Positions 21,820 to 64,000 of a DNA stretch of 64,000 bases are shown in pieces; position 1 is the stretch's first letter, and each line of letters starts with the position of its first letter. Both the position numbers and the translations under genes were made by a program. Under the pieces are notes generated by a model. It ran no database searches. It saw only the letters and a list, made by a program, of their open reading frames with translations, and was not told where the DNA came from. The DNA comes from a virus (Duplodnaviria > Heunggongvirae > Uroviricota > Caudoviricetes). The stretch covers positions 98,993 to 162,992 of IMG/VR virus record IMGVR_UViG_3300035520_000484, one strand, 5' to 3'.

Positions 21820-22377
21820 TTTTTTAGTTGCTTGTAAAAAATAATAAAGTAATTCTACTGGTATGATTGCTAAAGTTCCTTTACTTATAGAATTTTCTTC
21901 AGCAGTTTTTTTCCATATCATTATTAAATCTCTAGGATCTGAACAATTTTCTCTAATAGTATAATAATTAGGAAGGTTTTGAGTAGCTTTACATTGAATA
22001 GCGTAAGGAAGTTCATTATTAACATCAGCAATATCTATTTTATTATTATCTAATTTTTTGCTTTCAGCTGCAGAACGACATACTCCTGTATATCCAATTT
22101 CTTTAAGTTTATTTACTACTTCTGTTTCTAAAGCTCCTCCTTTATTTCTACTTTTTTTAGCTTGATAAGATCTAAAAGTAGTATCATTAATCCATCTACA
22201 ATGAATCTTATCTTTTTTATTTGCAGAACCATTTCGAGATTTATTACAACGAATCTTAATAGCAGCTTCAGATAATTCCGAAGCTAAAGATGCATCTTCT
22301 AAAGATACATATGTTTCTTTTCTACCATTAGGATAAGTTATTTCAACTGATGTGTCTAGATTTTTCTACTTAGCCAT
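21820..22377 (-). CDS. Hypothetical protein (possible PD-(D/E)XK nuclease) with an in-frame TAG at codon 4. Start overlaps the 3' end of the primase gene.
   Basis: Minus strand ATG GCT AAG TAG AAA AAT... gives MAK(TAG)KNLDTSVEITYPNGRKETYVSLEDASLASELSEAAIKIRC...DIADVNNELPYAIQCKAT... (185 codons, ends TGA). No alternative start codon downstream of the TAG. Confidence 0.45.
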
Positions 22378-23369
22378 AGTAAAAATTGTTTAATTAAATT
22401 AATTGTTTTAGTTTTATTATTTAATTTATAATAATCACTAATATCTTTAGCATTTAATTTTCTAGGAATCCAAGTATATATTAATTCAGGGTGTTTTTTC
22501 TTAATGCGATTCATGAAAGATATTCCAGTTAAATCATTATCAAATAATACAACAATATGCTTAAATCTCTTTTTAAGACTTTCTAAAACAGTTTCACTGA
22601 TAAATTGAGTTTCTGAATTAGGTGCACAAGCTGGAATCCCTAATGAGTATAAAACCATTGTGTCTTTCATAGATTTTGTTATTACCAATAAGTTACCTTT
22701 TTTAGGTAAATGTTCTATACCTTGAATTTTTTGGGTAGGCCAATTACCAATAAAACGATATTCTTTACGTTTAGGAAAATAACATCTCCACAATTCCTCT
22801 CCGTGATACTTATTTCCATAATATCCAAAAATAGGACAATGTTGCTGAGATGAGGCAATTACATTTCCATTTAAGAATACGTGTTTACATGAATATACAT
22901 TAAATTTTTTTAGAATTTCAGGAGTTATACCATATCTTGACCACCACTTTAATTCTAAAGATGTAAAATCTTGAATTTCAACTTGAATCTTAGAAAATTC
23001 TTTTTCTTCTACTTTTATATCTTTTGATATAATTTTACCTTTATTCCTAACTAAAGTATCATCTTTATAAATGTTAAAGTCATTAGCAATTATTCGTAAA
23101 GATTCGGAATATGTACAATGAAACAATTCACATACATATCCAAAACAATTTAAAGATTGTCCAGTAGCAAAATCCTTATAAATTAAAGTACCACGATTGT
23201 TTCTATATAAAGAACAAGTTGGGTTGTTATCACGCCGTAGTTTACTTCTGAAGAGTTTCTTAGACTTAAACTCATCACCTAAGTAAAAGCCAAAGATTTG
23301 CTCTTCAGAAATTTTAGATAAAATTAAATCCTTATTTAATTTGGGCTTACTTATTAAACTAAATTTCAT
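22356..23369 (-). CDS. Putative DNA primase (TOPRIM domain). Terminates at TAG, followed six codons later by TAA.
   Basis: C-terminal HIVVLFDNDLTGISFMNRIKKK is a TOPRIM DxD motif. Sits at the start of the replication module. Confidence 0.45.
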   Translation of the reverse strand: MKFSLISKPKLNKDLILSKISEEQIFGFYLGDEFKSKKLFRSKLRRDNNPTCSLYRNNRGTLIYKDFATGQSLNCFGYVCELFHCTYSESLRIIANDFNIYKDDTLVRNKGKIISKDIKVEEKEFSKIQVEIQDFTSLELKWWSRYGITPEILKKFNVYSCKHVFLNGNVIASSQQHCPIFGYYGNKYHGEELWRCYFPKRKEYRFIGNWPTQKIQGIEHLPKKGNLLVITKSMKDTMVLYSLGIPACAPNSETQFISETVLESLKKRFKHIVVLFDNDLTGISFMNRIKKKHPELIYTWIPRKLNAKDISDYYKLNNKTKTINLIKQFLLWLSRKI

Positions 23370-28846: not shown

Positions 28847-31800
28847 TGCTTAAAACATAAATTAGAGCAGACCAATTATCTACTCCTAATATTATTAATT
28901 TATGACAATTTAGAACAATGTCACAAATTATCTTTAACATTGTTCTTCCAAAGTAACCCCTAAATACTTAGCTACCTTCTTAATTTGATCCATTCGTTCT
29001 TCCCAACTTTCAATATGATACATAACCTCATTTTCAAGTCGGAATAATACCTTATTGCGAAGAACTGTAAGTTGGTCTGTTGTAAGTTCAGAATATTTCT
29101 TAGGTTTCAAAGTTACCATTGCACGAAGCTCATTATAATTAAGTCCAGAAGGCTTAACAATAAGACGTACAGAAGGTTTAATTCCCAAACGTTCTTTTAC
29201 AACTTCAAGTTTACTACGAGTCTTACCCTCTTTATCCTTTTCATCAAATTCCTTAATTTCAGAAGGAGTTAGATAGATACCCATATTAAGAATAAAACTA
29301 AAAGTAATATGCTTTGTGTCAATACTACCAAGTTGGTCTAGACATCCATCCAATACATTTTCAATAGAGATGCGTTCAAATTCTCGAGGAAGCCCACCAG
29401 TACAAGCAGCAATAGAAATATTCTTAAGTTCCTTAGAAGGAAATTCTTCTTTATGAGCATTCATATATGTACGAATATCCTGTACATAAAGATGACGAGG
29501 ATAAGGTTTTGCGTCTGCACAAATTGCTCCTGATTCTAATTTACGAAGGAATAGTTCAGTATTACATTTACTACGTTGATCTTTAATAATATCAAGTAGA
29601 ACATATCTACCAGGATTTAGCCTATCATTACTATAAAGCATAGAATAACAATGATTATAAAATCTATTAAGTTGTTCAGGCGTGGCATCTACAAGTCGTA
29701 GTTCATCTTGTGAACCATCAGATTTACGTGCAAATTTCCATACAAAAGATTTTACATCATTGCTTTTTGCATTAATAGCTTCAGTAAGCTTTTCTTTCAT
29801 CATTGTCATAACTTATATTTTTCATAATTATAAAAATTTTAATCTACATTACATACTTTTGGTCTGTTTCTTCTGGCTTTTTAATAAACTTATTAAATTG
29901 TACTCCATCATATTGATAAGGAACCATTTTCTCGCCATCAAACCATTTATCTATTCCTGCTAAAATCTCTTTATAATCTAAATAACCTATTTCTCCAATT
30001 TCTAGATTTCTATGTTCCCAATTTGGATATCTTGTACACATGATATATTTAGAATAGCTAATAGCTTCCTTTTCTAAACATTGAAATACATATGTAGTAT
30101 ATCCTCCTAAACTAGTTTCTTTTACTAGAAGTTTTGCAAGTACGGTCATTGTACAAAATACATCCATATTTAGCCATATCACAACGACATTTTTCAATAC
30201 CCTCAAAACATGGATATTTTGCACATGATTTACAAGACCTTTCTGGATATTTTAGTTTTACTCCATCCTCATCTCTAATTACTTTACTCATTTTAACAAT
30301 AAAAATACTAACAGTCCAACACTGACAGTTAATCCACCTACTTGCCAGTATTTTAACGTATTACTTTTACTTGATAATTGTTGATTAAGATTTTCTATCT
30401 TATCAAGATATTCTTGATTTAATACTTTATATTCACCAAGTTGTACTTTTCTCAAAGAATCAACTTGAACTAACTGATTATTTACTTGAATATAGTTATT
30501 AAGTTGTTCATTAAGTAAATTATTCTCTGTTAGTAATTTTTTATGTTCTACAAAAATGAGATTAGCATATTTAATATCAGAAACTGTTACTGATACTGTC
30601 GAGTCGTTCTCTATTGGCTGTGATATATTCGAGGAAAAAGCTATAATCCTCGTTAACATCATTACTAATAATATGCTTAAAATCCTCTTCATATTGTTTA
30701 TTATTACTATCAATTTTCTTATAAACAGTATCTATTCTTTCAACTAAACTATCTCGGACAATATAAATACTGTCTATAGTTTGATCAGTTGTATCATTAA
30801 TATTAGTTTGTTTATAAGAAGATTTATATAAGAAATATGCCTGAACAATAAATAGAATACAAAGTATAGCTATAATTATATAATACTTTTTCATCTTTTC
30901 TTTTTTAGTAACTCAAATTCAGGTAAATTATTTTCTTTTATAAAACTTTTAGGTGCCCCTAATAAAGTAATAAAGCGGAATAAGCTAAAATTCTTAAACC
31001 GCTTTATTACTTTACATTCTTTCACATTAAGTAATTTTCCCGATGTATAATATCTACATACAATAGTATTTACTCGATTAGGTTCTACTCTTTCAATACT
31101 TACTTCATATAGAAATTTAGGAGTCTGCTCAATTTGAAGATCTTGGTATCTATACGTTATAGGTTTTACCATTATAACAGTATTTAGATACAAGTGACTT
31201 CACACCAGCTTTAGTTTTAATTGTATAATTTTCTAGAACATCATTTACCTTTGTGTTCAAAACATTCTTAGAGTATGTACTATGAGGAAACTTATTATTG
31301 TTTACTAGATAAACAATTAATTTAGCTTCATAAGTAGCTCTAGATTCAGGAATAGAATGAAAATGTCCATCACGTTCCTTATAACGTAGCTTTTCATTAC
31401 GTAGGATTCTTTTTTCATTCTTAGTCTTACTCCAAACTGAAGGATCACGAGGTGCTAATACTCCATATCGAATCAAACCATGTTGAAGCATTACCTTATC
31501 ATCATGAACATTAATCCAACGATTTTCTTTCTTTTCCATAATTAAATTTTTGATTTTTTAATAGACTTGAATTTATGAAGAACTTCATACATTTTAAAGA
31601 AGCTATTCAGTATTCTAGTAATTTTTATATTATGATGAATATTATATGTTTCATTCCAATCACCTGTTTTATAAATCCATCGAATCTGATCAGATGTTAC
31701 ATTTGGTAATGTATACTGATAATATTCTAGGAAGTGACCAGAACAATTTATAGTTCCAATATCGGCTATATGAAGATAATAATGATTAGCTGTATTTAAT

Positions 31801-45416: not shown

Positions 45417-45652
45417 ATTATTTAATTAAATATTAATTTAATACTTATTTAGAGTTTGAATTACTACCAGCTTTTTACGTAAGTTTCTAATGACATTCCC
45501 AATCTTTTAAAGCTTGTTTATTCATATATTTAATAAGAAGATTTTTAATCTCCTTATTTTGCTCTTTAATATTATCTAATTTTAATAATATATAAGCAAG
45601 TATTAATCCTAATAATATTCCAATTATTATCATTGTTATTTATTTTAATTAG

Positions 45653-45729
45653 CCTCGGATGATGGATTCGAACCACCGACCTCTAGTATCAAATCTAATA
45701 CTAGCGAGCTGACCTCTCTCCTATCCGAA
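45653..45729 (-). tRNA. Aberrant tRNA or tRNA-like gene (77 nt): good acceptor, D-arm and T-arm, but a 7-bp anticodon stem with an 8-nt loop TAGATTTG. Anticodon undetermined.
   Basis: Acceptor TTCGGAT / ATCCGAG (U1.G72). T-arm GGTGG-TTCGAAT-CCATC. Anticodon stem CTAGTAT / ATACTAG. Variable loop AGGTC. Discriminator G. Confidence 0.4.
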
Positions 45730-46282: not shown

Positions 46283-46316
46283 ATCCATTTAAATTTAAGT
46301 TAAACAATAAAGTTAG

Positions 46317-46388
46317 TTGTCTCATCAGGATTTGAACCTGAAATAGCAGAACCAAAATCTGCTGTGTTGCCGATTACACCATGAGACA
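46317..46388 (-). tRNA. tRNA-Gln (anticodon UUG).
   Basis: Acceptor TGTCTCA / TGAGACA. D-arm GTGT-AATCGGCA-ACAC. Anticodon stem GCAGA / TCTGC with loop TTTTGGT. T-arm TCAGG-TTCAAAT-CCTGA. Confidence 0.75.
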
Positions 46389-49300: not shown

Positions 49301-50812
49301 AGGGTTTTATAATGCTAAAATTGCAACAAATGCAAATGCTATGTATAAAGCAAAGCATATCTTAGCAGATTTAACTTTCAGTTCTTGATTATCACCTACT
49401 AAATCTTCGATGATAGAATCAATGACGGAATGTATTGTACTTACTATTAAACCAAGAAATAGTAAGACAATACACACCTTCATTATATAGAATATTACCA
49501 CAGCCATAATAATGTGAAGAACATCACTCCTGCCAATATAGCAGGAGCAATGTAATATACATTACGAGATTTCCAATGTTTCATTTCAGTTGAGAATTTA
49601 CATAATCTGCATACGCTTTAAGAAATTCATCAATTCCTAGATAATATGCAACACCATACTTCTTAGCACGTTGTACAAAACATTTCCATGTTAAGTACTC
49701 GCCGATAATCGCTTCCTTGTTTTCAGGACAAGCGAAGTAACGGGAAAAGTTACAGTGCAACTGATCCCAGAGAGATGAGTGAATACCAAAGGCTTCACAT
49801 AAACCTTCATATTCTCTATGTAGTATTTCTTTATTCATAATTAATTTGGGTTTGTGTTTTACACCTAAAACTCTCATGCACATCGGCAAAGTTAGTAATA
49901 TCATGAATACTTTATCACTAACATGAGAGAAACTGGTGCCCTCAACATCTTGGGAAGTTATTGAGTTTTTTAATTTGCTCGTCTTTCCGAGCTGCTAACT
50001 ATCACATTGTATCATTAATACAGGAAAACCTATTCACATACGGTTTATTACTAAGGAATGTGGTACCCCAACCTGTTTTAAACACTAATGACCCCAATAC
50101 GCAGAAATAGTATAGCCAGTTCTTACTACTGCGAGAGTGGTATTGAGACCTTAGATTGATTTAACTTGGATTTCAAAAATATACCAATCATCTCCACCTT
50201 TATGAAAAGCTATATGTTCTTTAGCTTCTTCAAGAGTATTGTAAATACGAACGAGGTTGTCATTGTGGCATACCATATATCCAGATTTGAGTTCTGATGT
50301 TTTCATTGTTTTGTTGTTTTTTGGGTTATACTTCTGTTTCGTCGCAATTTTCAGCGACTCATCAGGTGTCTAATGACACGACAGAACTTAACTACTTTCA
50401 CAAGCAATTAAGTGTATAATTATTCCAAATCATGACCTCCTTAATAAAGGAGGTTTCGTCCTAGTCTCATCAGATGATATTTTAAGGTCTCCTAGGCTGA
50501 CCATAGAAATTTTCTATAATAAGAAAATTTTTAACTTATACGAATAAGTGAATAAATGTGCATACCTATATAGTCCTCGAATGACTGAGGAATTTTATAG
50601 AATGTACATTTGGGAATTAAAGGTGGGTGGTGGGTATAGACCCCCTTAATCGAAGATCCAGCCTATCACCAACCACCTTTTACCAACAATACGAAGCAAC
50701 CAATACCCAACTTTGCCTAACCAGCTATCAGGCAATACTTGAGTATGGTAAAGATTCCCATCATCATCACGAAGAAGGGAATCTTTAATCATAGTTGCTC
50801 TACAACACCGCA

Positions 50813-52887: not shown

Positions 52888-53049
52888 AAGGTACCTGTAC
52901 CCTCCCCCTCCTAACTCACAAAATTTTTTTCATCTAGAAAATTTTTCAATTTGAAATTGATTTCCAATTACTATGGGGAGGGGGTTAATTATATTAGATA
53001 GGAATTTACTATAACTCCTTGAAAATCAGACACTTATAAAGATTTTTAT

Positions 53050-53115
53050 TTTCTACAGCGCAATAATATTTTCTGTAGGACAATAATATTTTTTGTAGAG
53101 CAATACTATTTTGCT
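53050..53115 (+). repeat. Three tandem roughly 22-bp iterons upstream of the RepL-like gene (putative replication origin).
   Basis: ttctacagcgcaataatatttt / ctgtaggacaataatatttttt / gtagagcaatactattttgc. Followed by an AT-rich 12-bp inverted repeat (aaatattttattt...aaataaaatatt). Confidence 0.6.
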
Positions 53116-53130
53116 CCAGAAATATTTTAT

Positions 53131-53161
53131 TTTGAATATTGGAAATAAAATATTATATTTG
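53131..53161 (+). promoter_or_regulatory. Bacteroidota-type promoter (TTTG at -33, TATATTTG at -7) for the RepL-like gene.
   Basis: TTTGaatattggaaataaaatatTATATTTG with 19-nt spacing, about 20 nt upstream of ATG 53181. Confidence 0.5.
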
Positions 53162-53180: not shown

Positions 53181-53618
53181 ATGTATCAGCAAACTAATAC
53201 TCGTGAAATTGTAGATTGTGAAACAGGTGAAGTTAAAATAGTTGAGACTTCTAAAGTATTCACTGCAAAAGTAAGTTCAGATTCCTTTTATATGACATTT
53301 GTAGATTATCTAAGTCCTATCTTTCAATTGAAATCGGATGCTGCTAAAACTTTATTAGTATGGTTATGCAAACACGCTGACTTTAATACTGGAGTTGTAT
53401 CTATTTCTCCTGCCGATAGAAAACAGATATGCATAGAATTGAATATTACTAATTCAACTATCAGTAACAACTTAAAAAAGCTGGTAGAATTAAAACTCAT
53501 TTCCGGAAATGGAGGAAGATATTTAATTAATCCCCAAGTCTTCTGGAAGGGGGATCTTAAAGAAAGAACTAAACTACTTAAAGATAAAGAGATTCAAATA
53601 ACATTCTCTATAGATTAA
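53181..53618 (+). CDS. repL: RepL-like plasmid/phage replication initiation protein.
   Basis: Architecture and motifs resemble firmicute RepL: VDCETGEVKIVE..., central LLVWLCKHADFNTGVVSIS, wHTH ICIELNITNSTISNNLKKLVELKLISG, and the ending GGRYLINPQVFWKGD. Iterons lie immediately upstream. Confidence 0.6.
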   Translation: MYQQTNTREIVDCETGEVKIVETSKVFTAKVSSDSFYMTFVDYLSPIFQLKSDAAKTLLVWLCKHADFNTGVVSISPADRKQICIELNITNSTISNNLKKLVELKLISGNGGRYLINPQVFWKGDLKERTKLLKDKEIQITFSID

Positions 53619-53699
53619 TAACACTTTTTAACACATATCTTATTGCATATTCAACTTAGAGATAGTATATTTGCAATGTAATTAAAAATTAAATTTAAA

Positions 53700-54089
53700 A
53701 TGAATATTGAAAGACTTTTTGAACTTGCGCTAAAAAATCCTGAACATATAGAAATTGAATATTCTAATGTAAATGGTAAAGAGAAACTAATAGTAAATGG
53801 TGAAGATGTGACTGAAGGTGAAGTATTCGATGATACTAAAACTAAAGAACTTGTAAAAACATATAAAGATAATATTGAAGAACTTGATGATGATACTTTT
53901 GTAGAAGCAGTTGAAAAAATGGATGAACACATGAATATGTATGATTTTGACCAACTTCTTAATAAAGAATCATATACCTTTTATGAAGATGTTCAAATTA
54001 CAGAAATGATTGATGTTGCTAATAGTATTATTAAGCGAGTTATTTCTGATAAAATAAATGATCTTTTTAACCTTAGAGCCAGATTCTAA
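53700..54089 (+). CDS. Acidic hypothetical protein.
   Basis: Intact 129-aa ORF in the plus-strand module. Confidence 0.4.
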   Translation: MNIERLFELALKNPEHIEIEYSNVNGKEKLIVNGEDVTEGEVFDDTKTKELVKTYKDNIEELDDDTFVEAVEKMDEHMNMYDFDQLLNKESYTFYEDVQITEMIDVANSIIKRVISDKINDLFNLRARF

Positions 54090-54117
54090 ACATAGTGGGA
54101 ATCTTTCCCACTAATAC

Positions 54118-54191
54118 TGCCCAATAGTATAAAGGTTTAATTACGACGCACTCTAAATGCGAAAATAACAGTTCGAGTCTGTTTTGGGCGA
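54118..54191 (+). tRNA. Amber suppressor tRNA (anticodon CUA), reading UAG.
   Basis: Acceptor TGCCCAA / TTGGGCG. D-arm GTA-TAAAGGTTTAAT-TAC. Anticodon stem ACGCA / TGCGA with loop CTCTAAA (C32 U33 C34 U35 A36 A37 A38). T-arm AACAG-TTCGAGT-CTGTT. Discriminator A. Preceded by the hairpin AGTGGGA-atct-TTCCCACT. Confidence 0.8.
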
Positions 54192-54193
54192 CT

Positions 54194-54475
54194 ATGAACA
54201 TATCTTTTATTTATAATAGAAAACTTTATCAACCTAAGAATCCAGAAAAGAAATTAAAGCAATTAGGAATTACTTGGGATGATGTAAAAATTATTAATAA
54301 CAAATCTAATGAAATTAAAGAAGAATATGAAGATCCAAACAGATTATACTATTTTATAAATCCGAAAACTGGATGGTCTATAACTTCTATAAATCCAGTA
54401 TGTAAATATGATGATTATGAACAATGTACTAAAGAAACTTTAGAAACTTACTGGTCTCAAAACAGGAAAGTTTGA
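54194..54475 (+). CDS. Hypothetical protein.
   Basis: Intact 93-aa ORF immediately after the suppressor tRNA. Confidence 0.35.
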   Translation: MNISFIYNRKLYQPKNPEKKLKQLGITWDDVKIINNKSNEIKEEYEDPNRLYYFINPKTGWSITSINPVCKYDDYEQCTKETLETYWSQNRKV

Positions 54476-54649
54476 TAATGATAAGAATAGAGTTTATAAT
54501 ATGTGTCAAATGTCTATTCTAATGTTAGAAGGAATCTGGAATGAAATAGAAGAGCTAGGACTTAAAGATGAACAAATGGTACTCGATTGGCTTGACCATA
54601 TAAATGAAATATCTGTAAGAAATTAAATTTTTATTATGTTATATAGCAA

Positions 54650-54690
54650 GAAACCCGACATGGAAATGATTCCGTGCCGGGTTTTATTAT
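54650..54690. terminator. Bidirectional hairpin terminator at the convergence of the plus-strand module and the minus-strand late operon.
   Basis: aaaCCCGaCAtggaaatgattccgTGcCGGGtttt. T-runs on both strands. Confidence 0.55.
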
Positions 54691-55449
54691 TTAATAATGT
54701 TTAGCAGGTACTGGAGCACCTTGATATTGAGTAAACTAAAATCTTGAAGGACCATATGAAAGATTACCAGTGTCTGATAAAGGAGCTAAAGTAGCAGCTG
54801 CCGCATCAGAAGCTCTTTCATCAATACTCTTACTTAAACTACTAGCTTGAGAAGTAGCGTAGCTAAAAGGTGCAGTAGGAAATCCTGCATATCTCTAATA
54901 AGCTCCAAATGTAGGACTAGTTGAATATCCGTAATGTCCTGAAAGACTAGGAGTTTGAATAGTTCTATATGAACTAAGACTAGGTGTAGTTATTTCAGGA
55001 AGTGTTGAATTATCAAAAGCAGGTTCAGAAACATCTGAAGTTGTTACTTCATTAGGAGTAGATGATTTAACAGTAGATGACGTAACAGATTTACTAGTAG
55101 AGATACGCTATCTAGGCTTTAATCTAGTATTAGCAGTAACATCATGAGTTTTTAAATATGTGTCATTTGCAATTTTATTATCTAGTTCTTCATCTGCTGC
55201 TGTATATGTATAATCATCAAACTATTCATCACCTTTAATAACATCTCCTGCTTTAGGAGTTCCTTTAAATAATTTAGTACTTTTAGGAGTTACCCATTCA
55301 TCAGGAACTTCAATTACTTGTCCTATTTTTAATTTAACACTAGGTGTATGGTTAAGCTCTACTAATTTATTGTATTGCCCCCCCCTACCTGTTAATGCTT
55401 TGGCAATACCCCAATAGGTATCGCCTTTTTTAATTATGTACTTTGCCAT
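54691..55449 (-). CDS. LysM-domain protein with a Ser/Thr-rich C-terminal region. Four in-frame TAG codons.
   Basis: N-terminal AKYIIKKGDTYWGIAKAL...YNKLVELN...LKIGQVIEVP is a LysM domain. Reading continues through TAG at 55222 to TAA at 54691. Confidence 0.6.
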
Positions 55450-55562
55450 TTTGTTTTAATTTATTTTAATTTATTTAATTTATTTTACCACCATATTTCT
55501 TCATGTGTATAAAAGGACATAGCCTAATTGTTAATCCTCTTATTTTATTTGTTCTTAAAGTT

Positions 55563-55935: not shown

Positions 55936-57016
55936 TCTGGATTACCTACATTCATATAATACATTCCGTTTTTCCTTCGAAAGTTTTTCCTTGGATAACA
56001 GAAAACGCATTTATTAAATCTTCTTTTGATATATTATTGGGAAGGTTCATCCTTCTTAAGAATGTGTTAGATTGTTTCATTAAGTCTTTAACATAATCTT
56101 CAAGATTTATTATATTCCCATTTCTATAATCATTTGCTATTTGCTGTAAGTACTACGGGGATTCTTTAGCTATATTATACAATACTTTATTATCTTTAAT
56201 AGTCTAAAGGTCTTGAAGATATTGATCGGATGCATTTCTACCCTATTCTAATCCGTCTTTTATATTTTGTAAAGTTGATTCGTCATTAAAATAAAAATCT
56301 CCTTTAGGAGTAATTCTATACTCATTTTCTAAAGCCTATAATTGAGGATTAAGTTCTCTTATTTGGTTTAATGATATATTAACAGGTTCTCCATTTCTAT
56401 TATATTTTTGAGAAAATTGGCGCACTAAAGAAGGATCTTTTATATATTTAAGAAACCTGCCTCTAATATAAGGATTTCTTAATCCTCTCCTTCCTTGTTT
56501 GTTCATATTTTTAGCTAACCACCATACATCTTTAAAATTACGAGAAGTTCTAGCAAGAGCACTTACTCCTTTACCTAAATACTACATACCTTTAGTTGTA
56601 ACATAATCTTCTAAACCTGTGTATGGGGCAACTAAATAGAATAAATCATTACTCTATTCTAAAGGAGCCTCTGATAAGAACGCTCTTTTTCTTGTATTAT
56701 TACCCCATATATCTGTATAGTTAAATCCATTAGCATCCTAAGTAAGTAATGTAGGTAATTGCCAAGGAACAGTGTTAGGATTAACTCCTGTTGTTACTGT
56801 TCCTGCATTTCTTGATTCTGGCTAAGTAATATGAACTATATTTCCATTTACATCTGTATAAATCTCATAATCAGGATTACTATCAAGAACTTCCTATACT
56901 GTTTTTACATTACCATTTGTATCTACAATTTCAGTTATATTTCCCCAATCAGATATATCTTTGACTTTTCTTCTAAAAAGACCGACATTTTTAGTATCAG
57001 CATTATCAAGTGTCAT
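55932..57016 (-). CDS. Hypothetical late/structural protein (about 12 in-frame TAG codons).
   Basis: Open with TAG as sense for about 361 codons: MTLDNADTKNVGLFRRKVKDISDWGN...ECII-stop. Start overlaps the end of the upstream gene. Confidence 0.55.
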
Positions 57017-57758
57017 ATTGTCTAGAATTTTTAAATCGTTGTATTACAGAACCTTGTTTCGCCATAGGAAGAATGTCAGAGGAATCATTCTAAGCTACTT
57101 CATTAAACAATTTTATTAAATCTTTATCTTCAAACATATCTAATTTAAATAGGTTGATTGCATCTCTATGAGAATCTAGAAATTTCTAATCAACAATTTG
57201 TTCTGGTTTCATTTTAGTTGCGTACCTAAATTCCATCATTCGAGAATATATTTCATTAGGATCTAACAAATATTCTGCATTATCACTACTCCATCCATCT
57301 TTTGCTTTAGCTGTCTATTCGATTTCACCAATAGCATATATTTGAGGATTAGCTCTCATAGCATGGGTATATTCATGAAGTTCTGGATACGTATACTTCT
57401 CTTCTTTAAATATAGGAGGTCTTATATGAACTTCATGCTTACTAGGACTGTAATATCCTAAAGCTAATCCACCATCCCAATCGTGGAGTGTATCATTATA
57501 AAGTTTAGCAGATGCAGCATTTTCTATTTGACTATAGAAATTCTTATTTACATAAGTTCTTCTATTAAAAGAATTTGCTCTAGCCCATTCTTTCTACGGA
57601 ATGTTATAAGTATCACGAGAAGTAAAATGAAATATTCCTCCTAAATTGTTATATAACTAAGCTCTTCTGTGATTTAACCAATTAGCTAGCCATTCAATAG
57701 TTTGACTATCACTTTTAGGAGGTTTATAATTAGAAATAGGTGTAGTATAATCTGACAT
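57006..57758 (-). CDS. Putative zincin-like metallopeptidase (HExxH), late gene with six in-frame TAG codons.
   Basis: MSDYTTPISNYKPP...YTYPELHEYTHAMRANPQ... contains HEYTH. Ends TGA. Start overlaps the TAA of the upstream gene (TAATG). Confidence 0.5.
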
Positions 57759-59274
57759 TATTGTTTTTGTTGATTATTTAATAAATACATTCCTCCTGAA
57801 AATATTCCTACTTTCATCATAGCTTCTTTTGCTTTAGAAACTATTTCATTTAATTTAGGATACTTTTTAGCTAACTCTGTTAATTCTTCAGAAGATGCGA
57901 ATAATAAGTTATCAGTATCTATTCCTGTAATATTAGAAATTTCTTTAATTATAGATGAAGTATAAGGCTAGTCTATTTCCATTTTTAAAATTTCTCCTGA
58001 AGGAGTATTTTTGATAACTTCATCTAGTTCTTTTCCAAAAATCAGATTTAGGGATTCCTGCTTTTCCGCTTCAGTAAGATTAGAAGGTCTTTGATAGAAA
58101 GAATAGTTAGCTTTAGGAGTATTAGATACTACTCTTCTAAATCCATAATTAGGTTCCCATATATAAGCAGAAGTATTTTCAAGATTTAGCTAATCTTCAG
58201 AGAATGGGATCCTTCTTCCTGACATATCTCTCTTAGCTACCCGTGCATTTTTTGTAGCAAATTGTAAAGGTTCTCTAGTTACTAAAAGTCCTGGATGACT
58301 AGCATCAATTCCATTAACTATATCACCATCATACCATAAACCTCCCTATTTAAACATTGGATTGTCAAAGGTTTTACCAAAATCGAAAGTTCCAACATTC
58401 GTTTCTACTAAATTAACATTTTCAGTATTAGGATAATCTACTCTAACCTTCCTAGAATTTAAAAAATCTTTAACTATATTTGTAGAACCCTATCTATAAT
58501 TTAAATTCGGGTCATTTATTTCCACATCACCTGAACGATATCTCATCTTAGGAGCTAAGTCTGGAGTTTCTACCTCTCCTAATGGCATTCTACTAAGTTT
58601 ATATCCAAGTATAGATGGCTTGACAGCATTGTAAGAAATCTGTCCAACTCTATTTAGAAATGGAAGACTACTACCTCCAACTACAGAACCTATAAGCTAT
58701 CCTAAATATGGAGAATCATACTATTCCCCAATGTATCTACCACCTTCTCCTCCAATCCATGATCCTATTAATGGTTTTACTCCAATATTTCCAAATAACC
58801 CCAGCAGTCCAAGATCAATAACACCAGATATAGCAGCATTATTAAGTACCTACTAATATCCAGGTATATTATAAGCTCTCATTAATTGCCCCTGTCCACC
58901 TCTAAATAAACTACCAATGAAAGGTACATAGTCTGTAGAATGTGACATAATTTTATCTCCATTTTCTATATTATTTTTTATCTATTCCTTTTCTCTCATA
59001 TATTCTCCAGCCTATTCTTGAGATTGCTTCTAAGCATCTGTTCTATTATCCTAAATTACTTTTCCAGTAGACTACAACTATTTTTTAGGAACCTCTACAT
59101 ATCCATTTTCATATGGAACTCGAGTTACAGATGCATTATGTTTAGCTTCTGATTCTTTAGCTATGTTATATGCAAGTAATCTCTACTCAATATTTATAGG
59201 AGCGGTAGTATTATCAGATAATTCTTTTTGTACGAAAGAGTTTTTAATAATTGGTTTTCCCATATATATTATTT
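57758..59274 (-). CDS. Hypothetical late/structural protein, about 505 aa, Gly-rich hydrophobic segment. About 17 in-frame TAG codons.
   Basis: Open with TAG as sense: MGKPIIKNSFVQKELSDNT...GVIDLGLLGLFGNIGVKPLIGSWIGGEGGRYIG...LLNNQQKQ-stop. The ORF track shows only tiny fragments here. Confidence 0.55.
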
Positions 59275-59279
59275 GCTAT

Positions 59280-60045
59280 ATCTTTTTCTAAAATTTTCAA
59301 TAACATTAATTATTCTACCGCCATATTTATAAGACATATTATTTGCGTACTGATGGATAGTTTCTACATATCCTTTTTCTCCAGAATTAATTTGATTTAA
59401 AGGGATTTTGAACATGTTGATAAGAATATCTTCATCTATATTAGTATCCCATTTATTATAATCAGATTGATGCTTTTTATATTGATATTTAGCATCTTCT
59501 GTTACCCTATCAACATCCCATCCAGATTTTTCCCAACCTTTTAATAATGCAATATAAGGACTATCATCAAAGTATCTCCAATTACTGGTTATAAGAGAAG
59601 GCCCGATACTATCTGGCGAATCCGCATAAATCCAATGGCGAGGAGTACTCTTTCCTAAATAATATCTATTAGATCTGCCAGGATCTGTAGCTCCCGAAGA
59701 CTCTTTAATAGCTATAGCTAATCCCTATTTAGGAGATATTCCAGTAGCTTGTGAAGCCTGTACAATTTTATCAAATACCTCTATAGGTATGTTATAAGTT
59801 CCTCTGCCTTTAACAGTAACAGGTTTAGTTTTACCAGAAAGTTGAATAAGCTGTTTTTCTTCATTATTTATTCTATGAACATATGTAGTAACCGCTTTAT
59901 CAAAAGTTTTTTTAAATTCTGGAGAAGATTTATATTTCTAATATGTGGAAAATTTTATAAAAGGAAATAAAATATACTTTTTTAATCCACCTCCTGAAAG
60001 CCATATTTCATCATTTGATTCATTATGAATATATACTTGTTCCAT
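59280..60045 (-). CDS. Late protein, possibly lysozyme-like (ES motif). One in-frame TAG.
   Basis: MEQVYIHNESNDEIWLSGG...IVQASQATGISPK(TAG)GLAIAIKESSGATDPGRSNRYYLG... Start overlaps the upstream TAA (TAATG). Confidence 0.45.
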
Positions 60046-62030
60046 TATTTAAGTTTTCCTCCTAATTTAAATATTTTTTCAGAGCTTGCGTATCTTTCAG
60101 GAACGTTTACTTCATACCAAGTATTACCCTTTGGATCAGTTACTATAGAAGGTTCTGTTCCAAATAATTTCTTAAACTATTTAGGAAAATCACTATACTT
60201 TTTCAATATAGTTTTGTGAGCATCAGTATAATCTTCTATTTTTGGAACTTCATCCATCATTTGTCGACTACGCATTGTATAGTGATCAAAGATATTCTCC
60301 ATAACATCAGCAGTTCTTTGATCTCTTACATAATTTAGCATGTACTTATCTAAGAGTGTTGTTAAGTCCCCGTCAGTATATGGATCTTTTAATAACGATC
60401 TATAATAATTAACTCGATCTTTGTTTGTAGGATTAGTCTATAAAAATTCTATAAATTTTGTTATCCTAGGATCATTTGCGTATTTAGGATTCTCTTTGAC
60501 TAGATTTAATAAATCAGAAAGGTATCCATGATTATTTACCACATCTTTAAATTTACTTGCTCTCTCATTTAAAAATTCGTACTATTTTTTCTATCCAGGT
60601 GCCCATTGTGGAATTTCCTGAGGTTCATATCCTTCTACAGTAATAGCAGTTTCACGAGTAGGGTAGCGCATTGTTTTATACCCACGTGTGGAAGCGAAAT
60701 CAAGATTTTCTTGTAAGTGTCTGTCCAAATAATTTTTAGCCATATACTCACTAATAATATTTTTTTCTTGATCTTTAGGAGTATTTTTATTAAACCATTG
60801 TGCCCAATCACTTTGTGTTTCTGGAACATATAATACACCAGGCTCATCATATGTAGTAAAGAATCTAGAATGACCAATAGGAGCGCTGTTAAAATGATTA
60901 GTACTACCTCCAACAGAGGGATTATTAAAAGTAAGACTGTATATTTCTTTTACACTTGGATCAGTAGGAAGTTTACCATTTTTTGATGCATCATACCCTC
61001 CTCCATATCGTGTTTTGTGAATTATTTCTTGTCGTGATGGTGCCTTATATCCTAATTCTTTCATTCCATATGCAGCCCATGTATCTTCAAGACCAATATC
61101 TTCATACGAAGGAATTAATTCTGATACTTCCTTTCGTAAATCATTATAATCTATAAACTTATCAGCAGTATGATTTGCTAAAACTTGAGAAATCAATTCT
61201 TTATCTACTTTTGAAACTTCTGGCTTATTTAAATACTATTGTAACTATTTAATAGAAATAGTCCCTTGTTTAGATAATTGTTTTTCTAACTAAGATCCTC
61301 TTGCTAATGATTTAGGCATATAAGCTCCAGGAATTTCCTATATTTTATAAGGTTCTGGAGTAAAATACGGATTAGTTTGACCTTTTGTAAATAATGTTGT
61401 GGGTGTAAAACCATTTGCAACATATTCACCAGTCAAAGGAGTATTATGTAAAACATTACCCATATAACCATAGCCAGTATATTTACCTCCTGATACTCCA
61501 CGTAATGCTTTAGCAAACCAATTAGTATAGTCACTACTTGAACGTGTCATAGGAATTGCTGATAACGCAGTCATTACACCATTATACAAAGAGGGATCTT
61601 TTACAAACTCTTTACCATTATCATATAAGAAATATCCAGAAGTTCCAAGATTAGCAGTTGTGCCTAACCAAGCAGGGGCACCTATCAAATCTAAATAAGT
61701 AGAAGGAGTCATTAATGCTCCGACATAAGGAGCTGTAACAGCACCTAATCCAGCAGCAGCTGCACCTAATGCTTGAGTACCAAAGAAGTTCATCCAACTG
61801 TTTTGATTAAACTAGTTATGCACTCTTTCATCAGCTGCGGCTTTCTCTGTTATTCTAGCGTCAGATTTTTCTAATTGATTGGAAGAGTTTGGAGTAACAT
61901 CAGAACTCGCATATTCTATTCCTCCTGTCTATTCACCAGTATTAGGATTGTGTAAAACATAAGGCTCAACAGGCCTACCTGACAATTTTCCAACAAAAGA
62001 GCCAAGTCCTACTTTTTCTTCTTCACCCAT
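60045..62030 (-). CDS. Large late protein (about 660 aa, 9 in-frame TAG codons). N-terminal Gly/Ala-rich hydrophobic domain paralogous to gene 36613-38577.
   Basis: Continuous frame from ATG 62030 through track ORFs 61338-61793 and 60591-61196 once TAG is read as sense. [64 protein letters not shown] aligns to the paralogue. Confidence 0.7.
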
Positions 62031-62230
62031 TATTCAGTCTTTATATTTTTAAATATACCAGTAACAGAATCTATTCCAAGTAATAAACAGATTGCATAAA
62101 TAAAAGTGTCAATCATTTCAGGAGCTTGTATTCCATTAATGGTACAAAAGATTAATACACCAATAATTACTAAAAATCCAATGACACCACACACTCTTTT
62201 AGAAGATATTCCTGAGTGTGAGGTGACCAT
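62030..62230 (-). CDS. Small membrane protein (2 TM), holin-like.
   Basis: 66 aa: GVIGFLVIIGVLIFCTINGI and FIYAICLLLGIDSVTGIF. Its TAA overlaps the ATG of the downstream gene. Confidence 0.45.
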   Translation of the reverse strand: MVTSHSGISSKRVCGVIGFLVIIGVLIFCTINGIQAPEMIDTFIYAICLLLGIDSVTGIFKNIKTE

Positions 62231-62247: not shown

Positions 62248-62805
62248 TTAATTTCTACATTGTATAAAATCTAACAATAATAGTTCTTTATCAGTAGTTG
62301 CTTCAGAATTATGTTTCTTAGCAAACCACCAAGGCCAAAAACAATATTTAGAGTTCATAGATGAAATATACTAATCATAAAAAGATTCATCATAAGGAGA
62401 TTCATATAATCTTTTCCAATCAAACTTTCTAGTAAATTGCCAGAAAGTAATATTAGGAAAGGTTTCAATTATATATTTAATAAAATCAACAAATAAATTT
62501 TCTTGTCGACTATCTTCTTTAGATGTTTCTAGAATTAATCTAATAGTACATCCACCCATATCATTTAAATATTTAAAATAATCAACTACATTACCTTTAT
62601 ATTTAGCTATCCCATGACAGAAATAAGGATTCATATGTTTATCAAATCTGATTCTAAAATCAAAATCCCTAATTCCATATTGTTCATATTGTTGTGCTAT
62701 AGTTTTAGATTGACATTTAGCTATCCAATTAAATGGATAAATCCACCAATTTTTTAAAGGTAGATATGTAGCTGAATTATGAGTTCCTATTCTCATTAGA
62801 TACAA
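62248..62805 (-). CDS. PLC-like phosphodiesterase (PI-PLC X-domain-like). One in-frame TAG.
   Basis: MRIGTHNSATY resembles the PI-PLC active-site motif PGTHDS. A second His sits in FCHGIAKY. Reading continues through TAG at 62371 to TAA at 62248. Confidence 0.4.
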
Positions 62806-63053
62806 AGAGCTGACCAGCCAACTTGAGAACCAACTAAAGCTAAAACTGCATCAACTAATAGCATCTTCCATGTAGGAACTGAATCAAAATCTGAGGATTT
62901 AACTTTATGGAAATATCCTACTAACATAGAAAGAATAAATCCAACTATCATAGCAACTGCTACTACTCCTGTATTAGCAAGAATACCTGCTGAAACAAGT
63001 GCTGTTGCTAATGTAAAAATCATATTATTCTGTACTTTTGTATTTTTAAACAT
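62796..63053 (-). CDS. Small membrane protein (2-3 TM), holin candidate.
   Basis: 85 aa, hydrophobic segments IFTLATALVSAGILANTGVVAVAMIVGFILSMLVGYF and LLVDAVLALVGSQVGW. Sits between muralytic and phosphodiesterase genes. Confidence 0.45.
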   Translation of the reverse strand: MFKNTKVQNNMIFTLATALVSAGILANTGVVAVAMIVGFILSMLVGYFHKVKSSDFDSVPTWKMLLVDAVLALVGSQVGWSALCI

Positions 63054-63059
63054 AGTTTT

Positions 63060-64000
63060 TTATTTATTATAATTTAAAGAATTTTGTAAAATCTTTGCTC
63101 TTTTTGATACATTCATAACTCTATCATAATACCCATTTGCATTATTCCATCCTGATACTGCTTTTTGTATATTCATACCTCTATCTAGATAATTTCTAGA
63201 TAATATAAACATAGTAGCAATTGCAGCTTTTACAGGATCAAATAAAGAGTCTTTAGTAATCCCATATCTTCTAAATAATTCTTTAGTGGTTTTGTCTAGG
63301 TTAGATAATCTAATTTGTGTTAAACCTATAGAATTATTATCTCCATTAATTCCATATGTTTTATATTTAGAATATACATCAGGAGAACTTGCACTTCCCA
63401 TTCCAAAAACTTTGTGCGCTACTTTATTTCCAAACCTTGCTAAATTATCAATAGCAGTATGTTGTTTACCATAATTAGACTCAACGCCTAATATACCTAA
63501 GGCTGCCTAAGCTAATTGAATATAGGTATCATTATTAATACCTAATTCTTTCTAAATCATAGTTTTATATCTAATTAATCCTTTAGAAAAATCAGTATAT
63601 ACTTTCTTTTGATGATCATCAAGTCCTTTTGTACTAAAATGAATAGTTTTAATAGGAGTGTAATCTTTTTCATGATGACTTGGAGTTAAATTAAGATCAT
63701 GAGATTTAAAAGAAAGTTTTCCATTTCTAACAGCAAATTTATTATCTGAATTTACAGGTAGAATATATGTAGGCACATTCTCGTATCCTTTCAATAAATT
63801 ATTTAGTGTTTGTAGATCTTCTTTTGATAACCCTGTGCATCCATTAGTATTAGCACCTACAACACCAACATCACCAACATCACGTGCATGTATAGAAGAA
63901 GGTATACCTTTTGGATTATTTTTGTCTACCATAGCTTGAGTCCTTCTTATAAATGAAGGTGCCCCGCCATAAGAACCACTACGAGTAGTAAAATAAACAC
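63060..64000 (-). CDS. Muralytic protein with a C-terminal soluble lytic transglycosylase (SLT)-like domain. Partial; continues past the window end. Three or more in-frame TAG codons.
   Basis: ...LGVESNYGKQHTA...GSASSPDVYSKYKTYGINGDNNSIGLTQIRLSN... has the ES catalytic motif and GLTQI (compare GLMQI). The frame is open upstream to position 64000. Confidence 0.55.

What the first reader, a model, noticed from the sequence alone, without database searches (positions are those of the whole stretch)
54118..54191. Phage-encoded amber suppressor tRNA(CUA) next to the RepL/iteron module, on the opposite strand from the recoded genes.
A clean 74-nt cloverleaf with anticodon loop CUCUAAA (anticodon CUA) explains how the in-frame TAGs are read. 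It lies between the RepL-like gene and the bidirectional terminator, outside the main minus-strand tRNA cluster. This suggests separate, possibly early or replication-coupled expression of the suppressor, which would then license translation of TAG-containing late genes.
Basis: seen in the sequence. Interest (0 to 1): 0.85.

Follow-up and report, generated by a model that had tools for sequence, protein, structure and literature searches.

The report
Phage amber suppressor tRNA, TAG read as glutamine
A large crAss-like gut phage carries its own tRNA that reads the stop codon TAG as glutamine, which it needs to translate a block of cell-wall-degrading and unknown genes; the tRNA is real, but this kind of code switch is already well described for these phages.

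Summary
ARAGORN and Rfam both call a tRNA with anticodon CUA at 54118-54191/2 on the + strand.

The window is about 30% GC. Its primase is most like those of large crAss-like phages.

In-frame TAGs are real and confined to some genes. Nine minus-strand ORFs carry 63 of them: 54.7-64 kb plus 36.6-38.6 kb. Twenty-seven replication-module and island ORFs carry none.

TAG aligns with genuine CAA/CAG glutamine codons in an in-window paralog and in relatives' orthologs.

Seven related contigs have a tRNA(CUA) in the same place. It sits in a short island, tail-to-tail with the TAG-rich block of cell-wall hydrolase genes and apart from the main tRNA array. Stem pairs covary.

RepL (Pfam), three 20-nt iterons and a strong bidirectional terminator are all present. 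However, RepL adjacency is lineage-specific. The conserved neighbours are two small unknown proteins, orf129 and orf41.

Early expression that licenses late genes is the published model (Yutin 2021, Borges 2021). It is plausible here but untested. In three relatives orf129 itself contains TAG, so the island is not always standard-code.

Verdict: a new member of a known kind, of modest interest.

The parts
54118..54192 (+). Amber suppressor tRNA, anticodon CUA. Rfam ends it at 54191, which is the discriminator A73. No CCA is encoded.
   Evidence: ARAGORN; Rfam RF00005 at 52.8 bits. Homologous tRNA(CUA) genes in L036 and L038-L042 keep the cloverleaf, with both-side changes in 17 of 22 pairs.
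54093..54113 (+). Stem-loop of 9 base pairs that ends 4 nt before the tRNA 5' end. It has no U-tract.
   Evidence: dG -12 kcal/mol, z -4.0 to -4.8. A hairpin lies at the same place, with different stem sequences, in L038, L039, L040 and L042, and only weakly in L041. It is absent in L036 and L037, where no co-oriented gene precedes the tRNA.
53700..54089 (+). orf129, a conserved acidic protein of unknown function directly upstream of the tRNA. It has no in-frame TAG here.
   Evidence: Homologs lie directly upstream of tRNA(CUA) in L038-L042. 163 family representatives at E <= 1e-3. AF2 model pLDDT 91. No informative fold match. No Pfam or PHROG hit.
53181..53618 (+). RepL-like replication initiator with a winged helix-turn-helix.
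   Evidence: PF05732 RepL at 30.5 bits against a cutoff of 20.3; weaker HTH_36 and DnaD-like loader hits.
53047..53106 (.). Three tandem 20-nt direct repeats (iteron-like), 75-134 nt upstream of repL.
   Evidence: the repeat finder family D1. The pattern occurs 3 times in the window against 0.4 expected.
53154..53161 (+). TATATTTG, a match to the Bacteroidetes -7 promoter motif TAnnTTTG, 20 nt upstream of the repL ATG. A second copy lies at 53666-53673, upstream of orf129.
   Evidence: Motif scan. This is a consensus match only: there are 36 such matches on the + strand of the window.
54194..54475 (+). orf93. Its ATG starts 2 nt after the tRNA discriminator (A-CU-AUG).
   Evidence: ORF list. 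Homologs follow the tRNA in L036/L037 and L038. The same ACTATG junction is present in L036, L037 and L038.
54501..54626 (+). orf41, a small acidic protein and the last gene of the island.
   Evidence: 61-66% identical homologs lie just downstream of tRNA(CUA) in L039, L041 and L042; weaker ones in L037 and L038.
54650..54685 (.). Bidirectional terminator hairpin between the convergent island and the TAG-rich block.
   Evidence: dG -20.5 and -20.3 kcal/mol, z -4.8 and -5.0 on the two strands. A U-rich tail follows on the + strand.
54691..55455 (-). LysM-domain protein with 4 in-frame TAGs. It is the last gene of the TAG-rich block.
   Evidence: PF01476 LysM at 37.7 bits; PHROG endolysin family; TAG positions.
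55952..62033 (-). Five TAG-rich genes: 55952-57043 (9 TAG), 57006-57773 (5, with an HExxH motif), 57758-59296 (17), 59269-60048 (2) and 60045-62033 (10).
   Evidence: ORFs are continuous only if TAG is sense. Homologs of 57758-59296 were found, and TAG aligns with CAA/CAG in L038 and L037.
63060..63998 (-). SLT (lytic transglycosylase) domain protein with 2 in-frame TAGs.
   Evidence: PF01464 at 24.7 bits against a cutoff of 21.3; TAG positions.
36613..38586 (-). Isolated TAG-rich gene (15 TAG) inside the TAG-free replication block. Its N-terminal domain is a paralog of 60045-62033.
   Evidence: BLASTP gives 56% identity over 140 aa, E = 3e-37. Three of its TAGs align with Gln and one with TAG.
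46316..46388 (-). The phage's ordinary tRNA-Gln(UUG). It shares U1, G2-C71 and A73 with the suppressor.
   Evidence: ARAGORN and Rfam; alignments.

Best explanation
The feature is a functional, phage-encoded amber suppressor tRNA. The phage is most like the large (zeta-type) crAss-like phages.

The tRNA is probably transcribed as part of a short plus-strand unit: repL, orf129, hairpin, tRNA, orf93, orf41, terminator. RNase P and a 3' endonuclease would cut it out, and CCA would be added afterwards because none is encoded. A host enzyme, most likely GlnRS, would charge it with glutamine.

The tRNA then competes with release factor 1 at UAG. This lets ribosomes read through the 63 in-frame TAGs counted in nine ORFs. 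These are the minus-strand block that ends 500 nt away (LysM, SLT, HExxH and unknown proteins) and one stray gene at 36.6-38.6 kb. The replication genes have no internal TAG. The six of them that stop at TAG have a backup TAA or TGA 1-26 codons later, so suppression costs them little.

Shown here:
- the tRNA and its conservation with covarying stems;
- the partial recoding of the window;
- TAG aligning with Gln codons;
- the conserved position next to the recoded block.

Inferred:
- co-transcription with the island genes;
- charging by GlnRS;
- the idea that accumulation of the tRNA times the synthesis of the TAG-containing, presumably late or lysis, proteins.
For: The tRNA is called by two programs.

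Seven relatives have a tRNA(CUA) in the same syntenic spot:
- L036, and L038-L042.
- L037, where the gene is split by an insertion.
- The anticodon loop CUCUAA is invariant and 17 of 22 stem pairs show compensatory changes.
- Position 1 is always U, and the 1:72 pair is always weak: U.G, U-A or U.U. A weak U1:72 pair is a known trait of bacterial tRNA-Gln; that is established knowledge, not tested here.

Recoding:
- ORFs of 250-660 aa exist only if TAG is sense.
- There are 63 TAG against 89 CAA+CAG in the nine TAG-rich ORFs, and 0 TAG in 27 other ORFs.

TAG = Gln:
- In the paralog pair, 3 TAGs align with Gln and 1 with TAG.
- Three nearly invariant Gln columns coincide with window TAGs.
- The underlying codons at those positions are CAA three times in L038 and CAG once in L037.
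- In real TAG-rich genes, 5 of 6 aligned non-TAG residues are Gln, against a 2.8% background.
- Metaproteomics has shown TAG read as Gln in other crAss-like phages (PMC9523058).

Transcription unit:
- The four island ORFs have no in-frame TAG and end in TAA or TGA.
- No terminator-like site lies inside the island, and a strong terminator lies at its end.
- Bacteroidetes-type -7 motifs lie upstream of repL and orf129, but none lies between orf129 and the tRNA.

Backup stops follow the six TAG-terminated ORFs of the non-recoded part.
Against: - Overall sequence similarity does not place the window's tRNA with tRNA-Gln. Its best matches are Glu, Asp and Gly tRNAs at 0.61-0.64 identity.
- It has C3-G70 and A73 where E. 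coli tRNA-Gln has G3-C70 and G73, although the phage's own tRNA-Gln(UUG) also has A73.
- Its stems carry A:A and U:U mismatches.
- No expression data exist, so timing is untested.
- In L038, L040 and L042 the gene directly upstream of the tRNA contains TAG. This argues against a strictly pre-suppression island.
- One TAG in gene 57006-57773 aligned with Asp.
- Many database homologs were translated with TAG = Q, so part of the Gln signal is circular.
- How RF1 is outcompeted is unknown. No release-factor or aaRS hit appeared among the roughly 40 window ORFs scanned, and that scan was not exhaustive.
Confidence: 0.8

Rival explanations
1. The tRNA(CUA) acts mainly against the host or competing phages. 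Mass read-through of host TAG stops would weaken host defence or physiology, and decoding of phage genes would be secondary.
For: PMC12386605 (read) reports zeta crAss-like clades that keep a tRNA(CUA) without any recoded genes, and proposes this role. The window's TAG-terminated early genes carry backup stops, as expected if suppression is general and strong.
Against: In this window 63 in-frame TAGs sit in conserved ORFs that cannot be made without suppression. Decoding is therefore at least an essential function here. The two roles do not exclude each other.
Confidence: 0.15
2. The suppressor inserts an amino acid other than glutamine, for example Glu, Lys or Tyr. Alternatively it is mischarged by several synthetases.
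For: By overall identity the window's tRNA is closest to Glu, Asp and Gly tRNAs. It lacks G3-C70 and G73. One TAG aligned with Asp. Relatives L039, L041 and L042 carry an extra arm like that of type II tRNAs.
Against: 8 of 9 informative TAG positions align with genuine CAA/CAG. The trio of U1, a weak 1:72 pair and U35 is Gln-like. TAG read as Gln has been shown by proteomics in other crAss-like phages (PMC9523058).
Confidence: 0.07
3. Recoding here is not a timer. The tRNA is made throughout infection. The in-frame TAGs accumulated by drift after TAG became rare in an AT-rich genome (codon capture), or they serve to keep these toxic hydrolase genes silent outside a productive infection.
For: Borges et al. 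propose such an evolutionary route. Island genes in relatives contain TAG themselves. A TAG-rich gene sits inside the replication block. Only 6 of 67 ORFs in the non-recoded part end in TAG.
Against: The sharp split between TAG-free replication genes and TAG-rich hydrolase-type genes is conserved across distant relatives. That is easier to explain by selection on expression than by drift alone.
Confidence: 0.3
4. The tRNA gene is a decaying copy, and a host-encoded suppressor or some other mechanism reads TAG.
For: The stems carry mismatches (A:A, U:U, U1.G72). Published surveys find recoded phages with no detectable suppressor.
Against: The Rfam score is well above threshold. The gene is conserved with compensatory changes across seven loci, and the anticodon loop is invariant.
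Confidence: 0.03

Closest known systems
Suppressor tRNA(CUA) of TAG-recoded crAss-like phages, especially the zeta group (Yutin et al. 2021, PMC7886860; zeta phage survey 2025, PMC12386605; code 15 proteomics, PMC9523058)
   Same: - A low-GC phage whose primase relatives lie on contigs of up to about 180 kb.
- A replication block rich in homing endonucleases.
- tRNA(CUA) present.
- TAG read as Gln in only part of the genome.
- Rare TAG stops followed by backup stops.
   Different: Nothing fundamental differs. The papers read here do not describe three details:
- the conserved orf129-hairpin-tRNA-orf41 cassette;
- its fixed position tail-to-tail with the hydrolase block;
- the RepL and iteron neighbourhood of this particular genome.
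Only parts of those papers were read, so this absence is not proof.
[quoted passage not shown]
   Same: A suppressor tRNA lies in a standard-code unit directly beside recoded lysis-type genes. It fits the same model: make the code-switch machinery first, then translate the recoded genes.
   Different: Jade phages recode TGA to Trp, and their module includes TrpRS and RF1. Here TAG is read as Gln, and no synthetase or release factor was found among the ORFs scanned. The partners are two small proteins of unknown function, and the unit is convergent with the recoded block rather than upstream of it.
E. coli supE (glnV44), the classical glutamine-inserting amber suppressor tRNA-Gln(CUA). This comparison rests on established knowledge, not on a test here.
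   Same: CUA anticodon with C34, U35 and A37. U at position 1 with a weak 1:72 pair. G2-C71 and G10. GlnRS would have to accept A36.
   Different: The phage tRNA has C3-G70, A38 and A73 where the E. coli tRNA has G3-C70, U38 and G73. It is phage-encoded and required for normal phage genes, rather than a mutant allele that rescues nonsense mutations.
tRNA-Pyl (pylT), which is the label ARAGORN printed
   Same: Only the CUA anticodon.
   Different: The phage tRNA has a normal-sized D loop (10 nt), two bases between the acceptor and D stems, and a 4-5 nt variable loop. The compact pylT architecture is absent. No pylS or pylBCD was seen among the ORFs scanned.

Membership tests
tRNA (Rfam RF00005) | Cloverleaf scoring above the curated threshold | tested here: met
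   52.8 bits against a gathering score of 29, covering the full model 1-71. ARAGORN cloverleaf.
Amber suppressor tRNA | Anticodon CUA centred in a 7-nt loop, with U33 and a purine at position 37 | tested here: met
   The loop reads C32 U33 C34 U35 A36 A37 A38. The first six bases, CUCUAA, are invariant in seven homologous genes.
Amber suppressor tRNA | Actually reads UAG in vivo (is aminoacylated and used by ribosomes) | not testable with these tools
   Only indirect support: 63 in-frame TAGs in conserved ORFs of the same genome.
Glutamine-accepting tRNA (GlnRS identity set as defined in E. coli; established knowledge) | U1 with a weak 1:72 pair, G2-C71, G3-C70, G10, U35, A37 and G73 | tested here: inconclusive
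   Present: U1.G72, G2-C71, G10, U35 and A37. Absent: G3-C70 (it is C3-G70) and G73 (it is A73). The phage's own tRNA-Gln(UUG) also has A73 and U3-A70. The host's rules are unknown. Overall similarity is not Gln-specific.
Genetic code 15 usage (TAG = Gln) in part of a phage genome | In-frame TAG in conserved genes, aligned with Gln in homologs | tested here: met
   Codon-level checks avoid the circular Q = TAG translations present in database proteins.
Genetic code 15 usage (TAG = Gln) in part of a phage genome | Recoded genes are late, structural or lysis genes, and early genes are in standard code | tested here: inconclusive
   Replication genes are TAG-free. The TAG-rich set includes LysM and SLT proteins, and relatives have lysozyme, NlpC/P60 and M15 peptidase genes in the same block. 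Most TAG-rich proteins have no assigned function, and timing was not measured.
Crassvirales (crAss-like phages) | Signature genes (MCP, TerL, portal, crAss-type RNAP) and phylogenetic placement | not tested
   The signature structural genes were not identified in this window. Support is indirect. The DnaG-type primase matches crAss-like phages at 35-38% identity, and IMG/VR contigs (up to about 180 kb long) at 47-81%.
RepL (PF05732) replication initiator with iterons | Match above the Pfam threshold, with tandem direct repeats nearby | tested here: met
   30.5 bits against 20.3. Three 20-nt repeats lie 75-134 nt upstream. Origin function and binding are untested.
tRNA-Pyl | Compact pylT architecture (short D loop, 3-nt variable loop, 6-bp anticodon stem) with pylS | tested here: not met
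   10-nt D loop, 4-5 nt variable loop, and an anticodon stem of 4 Watson-Crick pairs plus mismatches. No pylS among the ORFs scanned.

The most novel reading that the evidence does not exclude
The conserved unit orf129 - hairpin - tRNA(CUA) - (orf93) - orf41 could be a dedicated code-switch cassette. It always sits tail-to-tail with the TAG-rich hydrolase block. In this reading the two small, acidic, strongly conserved proteins are not bystanders. They would act on suppression itself, for instance by blocking release factor 1, by promoting charging of the tRNA by GlnRS, or by processing the tRNA. The hairpin and the tRNA-ATG junction would couple tRNA maturation to expression of the downstream ORF.
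Probability: 0.12. Interest if true: 0.7.

Novelty: new member of a known kind. Interest (0 to 1): 0.3.

Why it matters
The window must be translated with TAG = Gln for the 54.7-64 kb block and for 36.6-38.6 kb. Otherwise those genes break into fragments. That is the practical consequence.

Biologically the window is one more well-resolved case of partial stop-codon reassignment in a gut phage. It gives a tidy test system: a single tRNA, a defined transcription unit and a defined set of dependent genes next to it. The conserved small neighbours, orf129 and orf41, are the only part that could lead somewhere new. How such phages beat RF1 and get the tRNA charged is still an open question in the published work.

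Tried and rejected
- DNA search of 50.5-58 kb against GenBank phages found no match.
- RepL and the 55952-57043 protein, used as queries for related viral loci, gave no confirmed relatives.
- A pattern built on the acceptor stem found nothing. A pattern on the anticodon and T arms found L035, which is unrelated, and L036, which is related.
- The ±10 kb regions around the primase of 34 relatives contain no tRNA, so relatives had to be reached through the TAG-rich protein instead.
- Isotype assignment by nearest tRNA sequence was inconclusive for the window's tRNA.
- A naive tally of residues aligned to TAG was contaminated by TAGs lying upstream of real starts in early genes. Only bona fide TAG-rich genes were used.
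- Database homologs turned out to have been translated with TAG = Q, so their Q residues were not taken at face value.
- The Pyl reading was rejected on structure.
- The word-indexed search found only the query itself, on a 163-kb JGI contig, and that contig could not be fetched.
- Rfam found no intron family in the insertion that splits the L037 tRNA.
- The sigma-70 promoter scan gave no more sites than in shuffled sequence (24 found, mean 26.3).

Full report
**1. The observation**

ARAGORN reports six tRNAs in the window. Five lie on the minus strand between 40.4 and 46.4 kb. One lies on the plus strand at 54118-54192 and has anticodon CTA. Rfam's tRNA model matches 54118-54191 at 52.8 bits, against a threshold of 29, E = 1.7e-8.

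The cloverleaf drawn by ARAGORN has these features:
- A 7-bp acceptor stem that begins with a U1.G72 wobble, followed by discriminator A73. No CCA is encoded.
- A D stem of 3 pairs plus U:U, with a 10-nt D loop.
- An anticodon stem of 4 Watson-Crick pairs plus A:A.
- The loop CUCUAAA, a short variable loop, and a 5-bp T stem.

A thermodynamic fold of the isolated sequence is unremarkable (z = -0.96). That is normal for AT-rich tRNAs and does not count against the call. The 'Pyl' label is only ARAGORN's name for the CUA anticodon.

**2. What the window is**

The window has 30% GC, and nearly all coding is on the minus strand. PHROG scans identify a replication block: family A DNA polymerase, ATP-dependent ligase, exonuclease, DnaB-type helicase, a second helicase, DnaG-type primase and ribonucleotide reductase. 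HNH and GIY-YIG homing endonucleases are interspersed.

The primase matches named crAss-like phages at 35-38% identity. It matches IMG/VR contigs, whose lengths run up to about 180 kb, at 47-81%. orf129 is recorded on a 162,992-bp JGI contig. This profile fits the large zeta group of crAss-like phages described by Yutin et al. (PMC7886860) and in PMC12386605. The signature structural genes are not in this window, so that placement is indirect.

**3. Is TAG really recoded?**

Treating TAG as sense lengthens ORFs markedly. The in-frame TAGs are concentrated in a few minus-strand ORFs:

| ORF (minus strand) | In-frame TAGs | Note |
|---|---|---|
| 54691-55455 | 4 | LysM |
| 55952-57043 | 9 | |
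| 57006-57773 | 5 | |
| 57758-59296 | 17 | |
| 59269-60048 | 2 | |
| 60045-62033 | 10 | |
| 63060-63998 | 2 | SLT |
| 36613-38586 | 15 | Isolated inside the replication block |

Counted from the presumed start codons, nine TAG-rich ORFs hold 63 TAG against 79 CAA and 10 CAG. The ninth is 62248-62850, with one TAG. In contrast, 27 replication-block and island ORFs (7,684 codons) have none.

Of 67 standard-code ORFs of at least 90 aa in the non-recoded part, only 6 end in TAG. Each of these has an in-frame TAA or TGA 1-26 codons further on. PMC12386605 describes the same pattern for zeta phages.

**4. Which amino acid?**

- The N-terminal domains of 36613-38586 and 60045-62033 are paralogs: 56% identity over 140 aa, E = 3e-37. 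In that stretch three TAGs of one align with Gln of the other, and one TAG aligns with TAG.
- The 57758-59296 protein has homologs. In the conserved core, three of its TAGs fall in nearly invariant Gln columns: NYR-Q-G, MFK-Q-G and ED-Q-L.
- One caution applies. The related contigs are themselves TAG-recoded, and their database proteins had been translated with TAG = Q. I therefore checked the codons directly. L038 has CAA at all three sites. L037 has CAG at one site and TAG at two.
- Across real TAG-rich genes, 5 of 6 aligned non-TAG residues are Gln, against a background of 2.8%.

With the paralog data, that makes 8 of 9 informative positions. Metaproteomics has shown TAG read as Gln in other crAss-like phages (PMC9523058).

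The tRNA itself gives only partial support. It has U1 with a weak 1:72 pair, G2-C71, G10, U35 and A37. But it has C3-G70 and A73, and its overall similarity is not Gln-specific. The homologous suppressors in relatives look more Gln-like: their D arm is UGGUGUAAUGG..AGCAC, and L039, L041 and L042 have U1-A72.

**5. Surroundings in the window**

The tRNA sits in a 1.5-kb plus-strand island, in this order:

| Element | Coordinates |
|---|---|
| Three 20-nt tandem repeats | 53047-53106 |
| repL | 53181-53618 |
| orf129 | 53700-54089 |
| 9-bp hairpin | 54093-54113 |
| tRNA(CUA) | 54118-54192 |
| orf93 | 54194-54475 |
| orf41 | 54501-54626 |
| GC-rich hairpin | 54650-54685 |

- repL matches PF05732 at 30.5 bits against a threshold of 20.3. 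The repeats lie just upstream of it.
- The terminal hairpin folds equally well on both strands, at about -20 kcal/mol and z about -4.9. The LysM gene of the TAG-rich block ends immediately beyond it, at 54691.
- So the RepL/iteron module and the bidirectional terminator are both real. The tRNA is separated from each by small ORFs.
- The four island ORFs have no in-frame TAG and stop at TAA or TGA.
- Matches to the Bacteroidetes -7 motif TAnnTTTG lie 20 nt upstream of repL and 27 nt upstream of orf129. None lies between orf129 and the tRNA.
- No terminator-like site lies inside the island.

I therefore infer one transcription unit from which the tRNA is cut out. This is weak evidence, because such motifs are common in AT-rich DNA.

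**6. Relatives**

I reached seven related loci in two ways: through a tRNA sequence pattern (L036), and through homologs of the 57758-59296 protein (L037-L042). All seven are TAG-recoded where this could be judged.

In every one, a tRNA(CUA) lies in a short island on the strand opposite to the homologous block and convergent with it. In those loci the block also contains Peptidase_M15, PG_binding, Phage_lysozyme, NlpC/P60-glucosaminidase or Phage_lysozyme2 genes. The main tRNA arrays lie elsewhere, on the other strand.

An alignment of the seven intact genes keeps the cloverleaf. Both sides have changed in 17 of 22 pairs, and the anticodon loop CUCUAA is invariant. That argues for a functional gene under selection.

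The conserved neighbours are these:
- orf129 lies directly upstream of the tRNA in L038-L042.
- orf41 lies directly downstream. It is 61-66% identical in L039, L041 and L042, and weaker in L037 and L038.
- orf93 is present in L036/L037 and L038.

RepL was not found in any relative by BLASTP. L038 has a 239-aa HTH_36/DnaD_N protein at the equivalent place. L036 and L037 have no co-oriented gene upstream of the tRNA at all. The link to a replication initiator is therefore a feature of some lineages. The link to the TAG-rich hydrolase block holds in all of them.

Two smaller features track the cassette:
- A hairpin ending 4-6 nt before the tRNA 5' end is present wherever orf129 precedes the tRNA. 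Its stem sequence differs between loci. It is absent in L036 and L037. It has no U-tract. My reading is that it is the 3' end structure left on the orf129 mRNA after RNase P cuts, or an attenuator. This is inference.
- In the window, L036, L037 and L038 the next ORF starts exactly two bases after the discriminator, as ACTATG. Cleavage at the tRNA 3' end would therefore leave an almost leaderless mRNA.

**7. How it most likely works**

The island is transcribed, and the tRNA is released, given CCA and charged with Gln. The tRNA then competes with RF1 at UAG, which allows full-length synthesis of the TAG-rich proteins. The TAG-free replication genes do not depend on it, and backup stops limit the damage to them.

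The suggestion that this delays synthesis of cell-wall hydrolases and other late proteins until the tRNA has accumulated is the model of Yutin et al. and Borges et al.. The gene layout in this window fits it well.

Two observations temper the model:
- The orf129 homologs of L038, L040 and L042 contain in-frame TAG. In L038 the TAG is followed by the family's conserved C-terminal motif. A further island gene in L039 and L041 has 3-8 TAGs.
- A heavily recoded gene sits inside the replication block of the window.

How RF1 is overcome remains unknown. No release factor or synthetase was seen among the roughly 40 ORFs scanned.

**8. Comparison and novelty**

The closest known systems are:
- the suppressor tRNAs of recoded crAss-like phages, which are the same phenomenon;
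- the Jade phage code-change module next to a lysis cassette, which follows the same logic with a different codon and different partners;
- E. coli supE, which has the same anticodon and the same amino acid.

tRNA-Pyl is excluded on structure.

The finding is a new member of a known kind. The modest additions are the conserved orf129-hairpin-tRNA-orf41 cassette and its fixed position beside the recoded block.

orf129 belongs to a family of at least 163 sequence clusters. It folds confidently in prediction (pLDDT 91). It has no informative structural match, so its role is open.

**9. Verdict**

Interest is 0.3.

Noticed in passing
window 50331-50387 (-) and 50429-50503 (-): Two self-cleaving ribozymes lie side by side: a type III hammerhead (49.8 bits) and a RAGATH-1 hammerhead (76.7 bits). 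They sit in the most GC-rich part of the window (0.40 GC at 50-52 kb), just downstream of a 175-aa ORF of unknown function. A RAGATH-1 hammerhead is also present in the relatives, at L036 9447-9521 and L037 11242-11316.
   Followed up: partly
L037 7293-8361 (-): In this relative the tRNA(CUA) gene is split. Its 34-nt and 40-nt exons are identical to the intact L036 tRNA. They are separated exactly between U35 and A36 of the anticodon by 995 nt, which encode an HNH/I-HmuI-like endonuclease. The 5' exon ends in U and the insert ends in G, as in group I introns. Rfam finds no intron family there.
   Followed up: partly
L039 12996-13086, L041 13160-13247, L042 12828-12916 (all -): The suppressor tRNAs of these relatives are 88-91 nt long. 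They carry an extra stem-loop of about 17 nt after the anticodon stem, yet keep the Gln-like U1-A72 and D arm. The effect on charging is unknown.
   Followed up: no
window 44338-44423 (-): This tRNA has anticodon UCU (Arg) but is 86 nt long, with a long variable arm and A73. Its T arm is identical to that of tRNA-Leu(UAA) at 40404-40489. Long-arm tRNAs in bacteria are normally Leu, Ser or Tyr, so its amino-acid identity is unclear.
   Followed up: no
window 45652-45729 (-): A weak tRNA call (Rfam 31.8 bits) labelled Ser(AGA). It is 78 nt, has an irregular anticodon stem and has A at position 34. It may be a degenerate or unusual tRNA.
   Followed up: no
window 36613-38586 (-): A gene with 15 in-frame TAGs and an HExxH motif sits alone inside the otherwise TAG-free replication block, next to a DnaJ-like gene (35780-36622). 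Its N-terminal domain is a paralog of the 60045-62033 protein.
   Followed up: partly
window 54192-54196, and the same junction in L036, L037 and L038: The ATG of the ORF after the tRNA starts exactly 2 nt after the discriminator base (A-CU-AUG) in four genomes. Processing of the tRNA 3' end would therefore create a nearly leaderless mRNA.
   Followed up: partly
window 433-1134, 20863-21384, 22356-23369, 29844-30167, 31150-31539, 34857-35147 (all -): These are the only six ORFs of at least 90 aa in the non-recoded part that stop at TAG. Each has an in-frame TAA or TGA 1-26 codons downstream, which looks like insurance against the phage's own suppressor.
   Followed up: yes
window 44604-45425 (-) and 35780-36622 (-): The phage encodes an SPFH/Band 7 protein within the tRNA cluster region, and a full-length DnaJ-type co-chaperone with J domain, zinc finger and C-terminal domain.
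   Followed up: no
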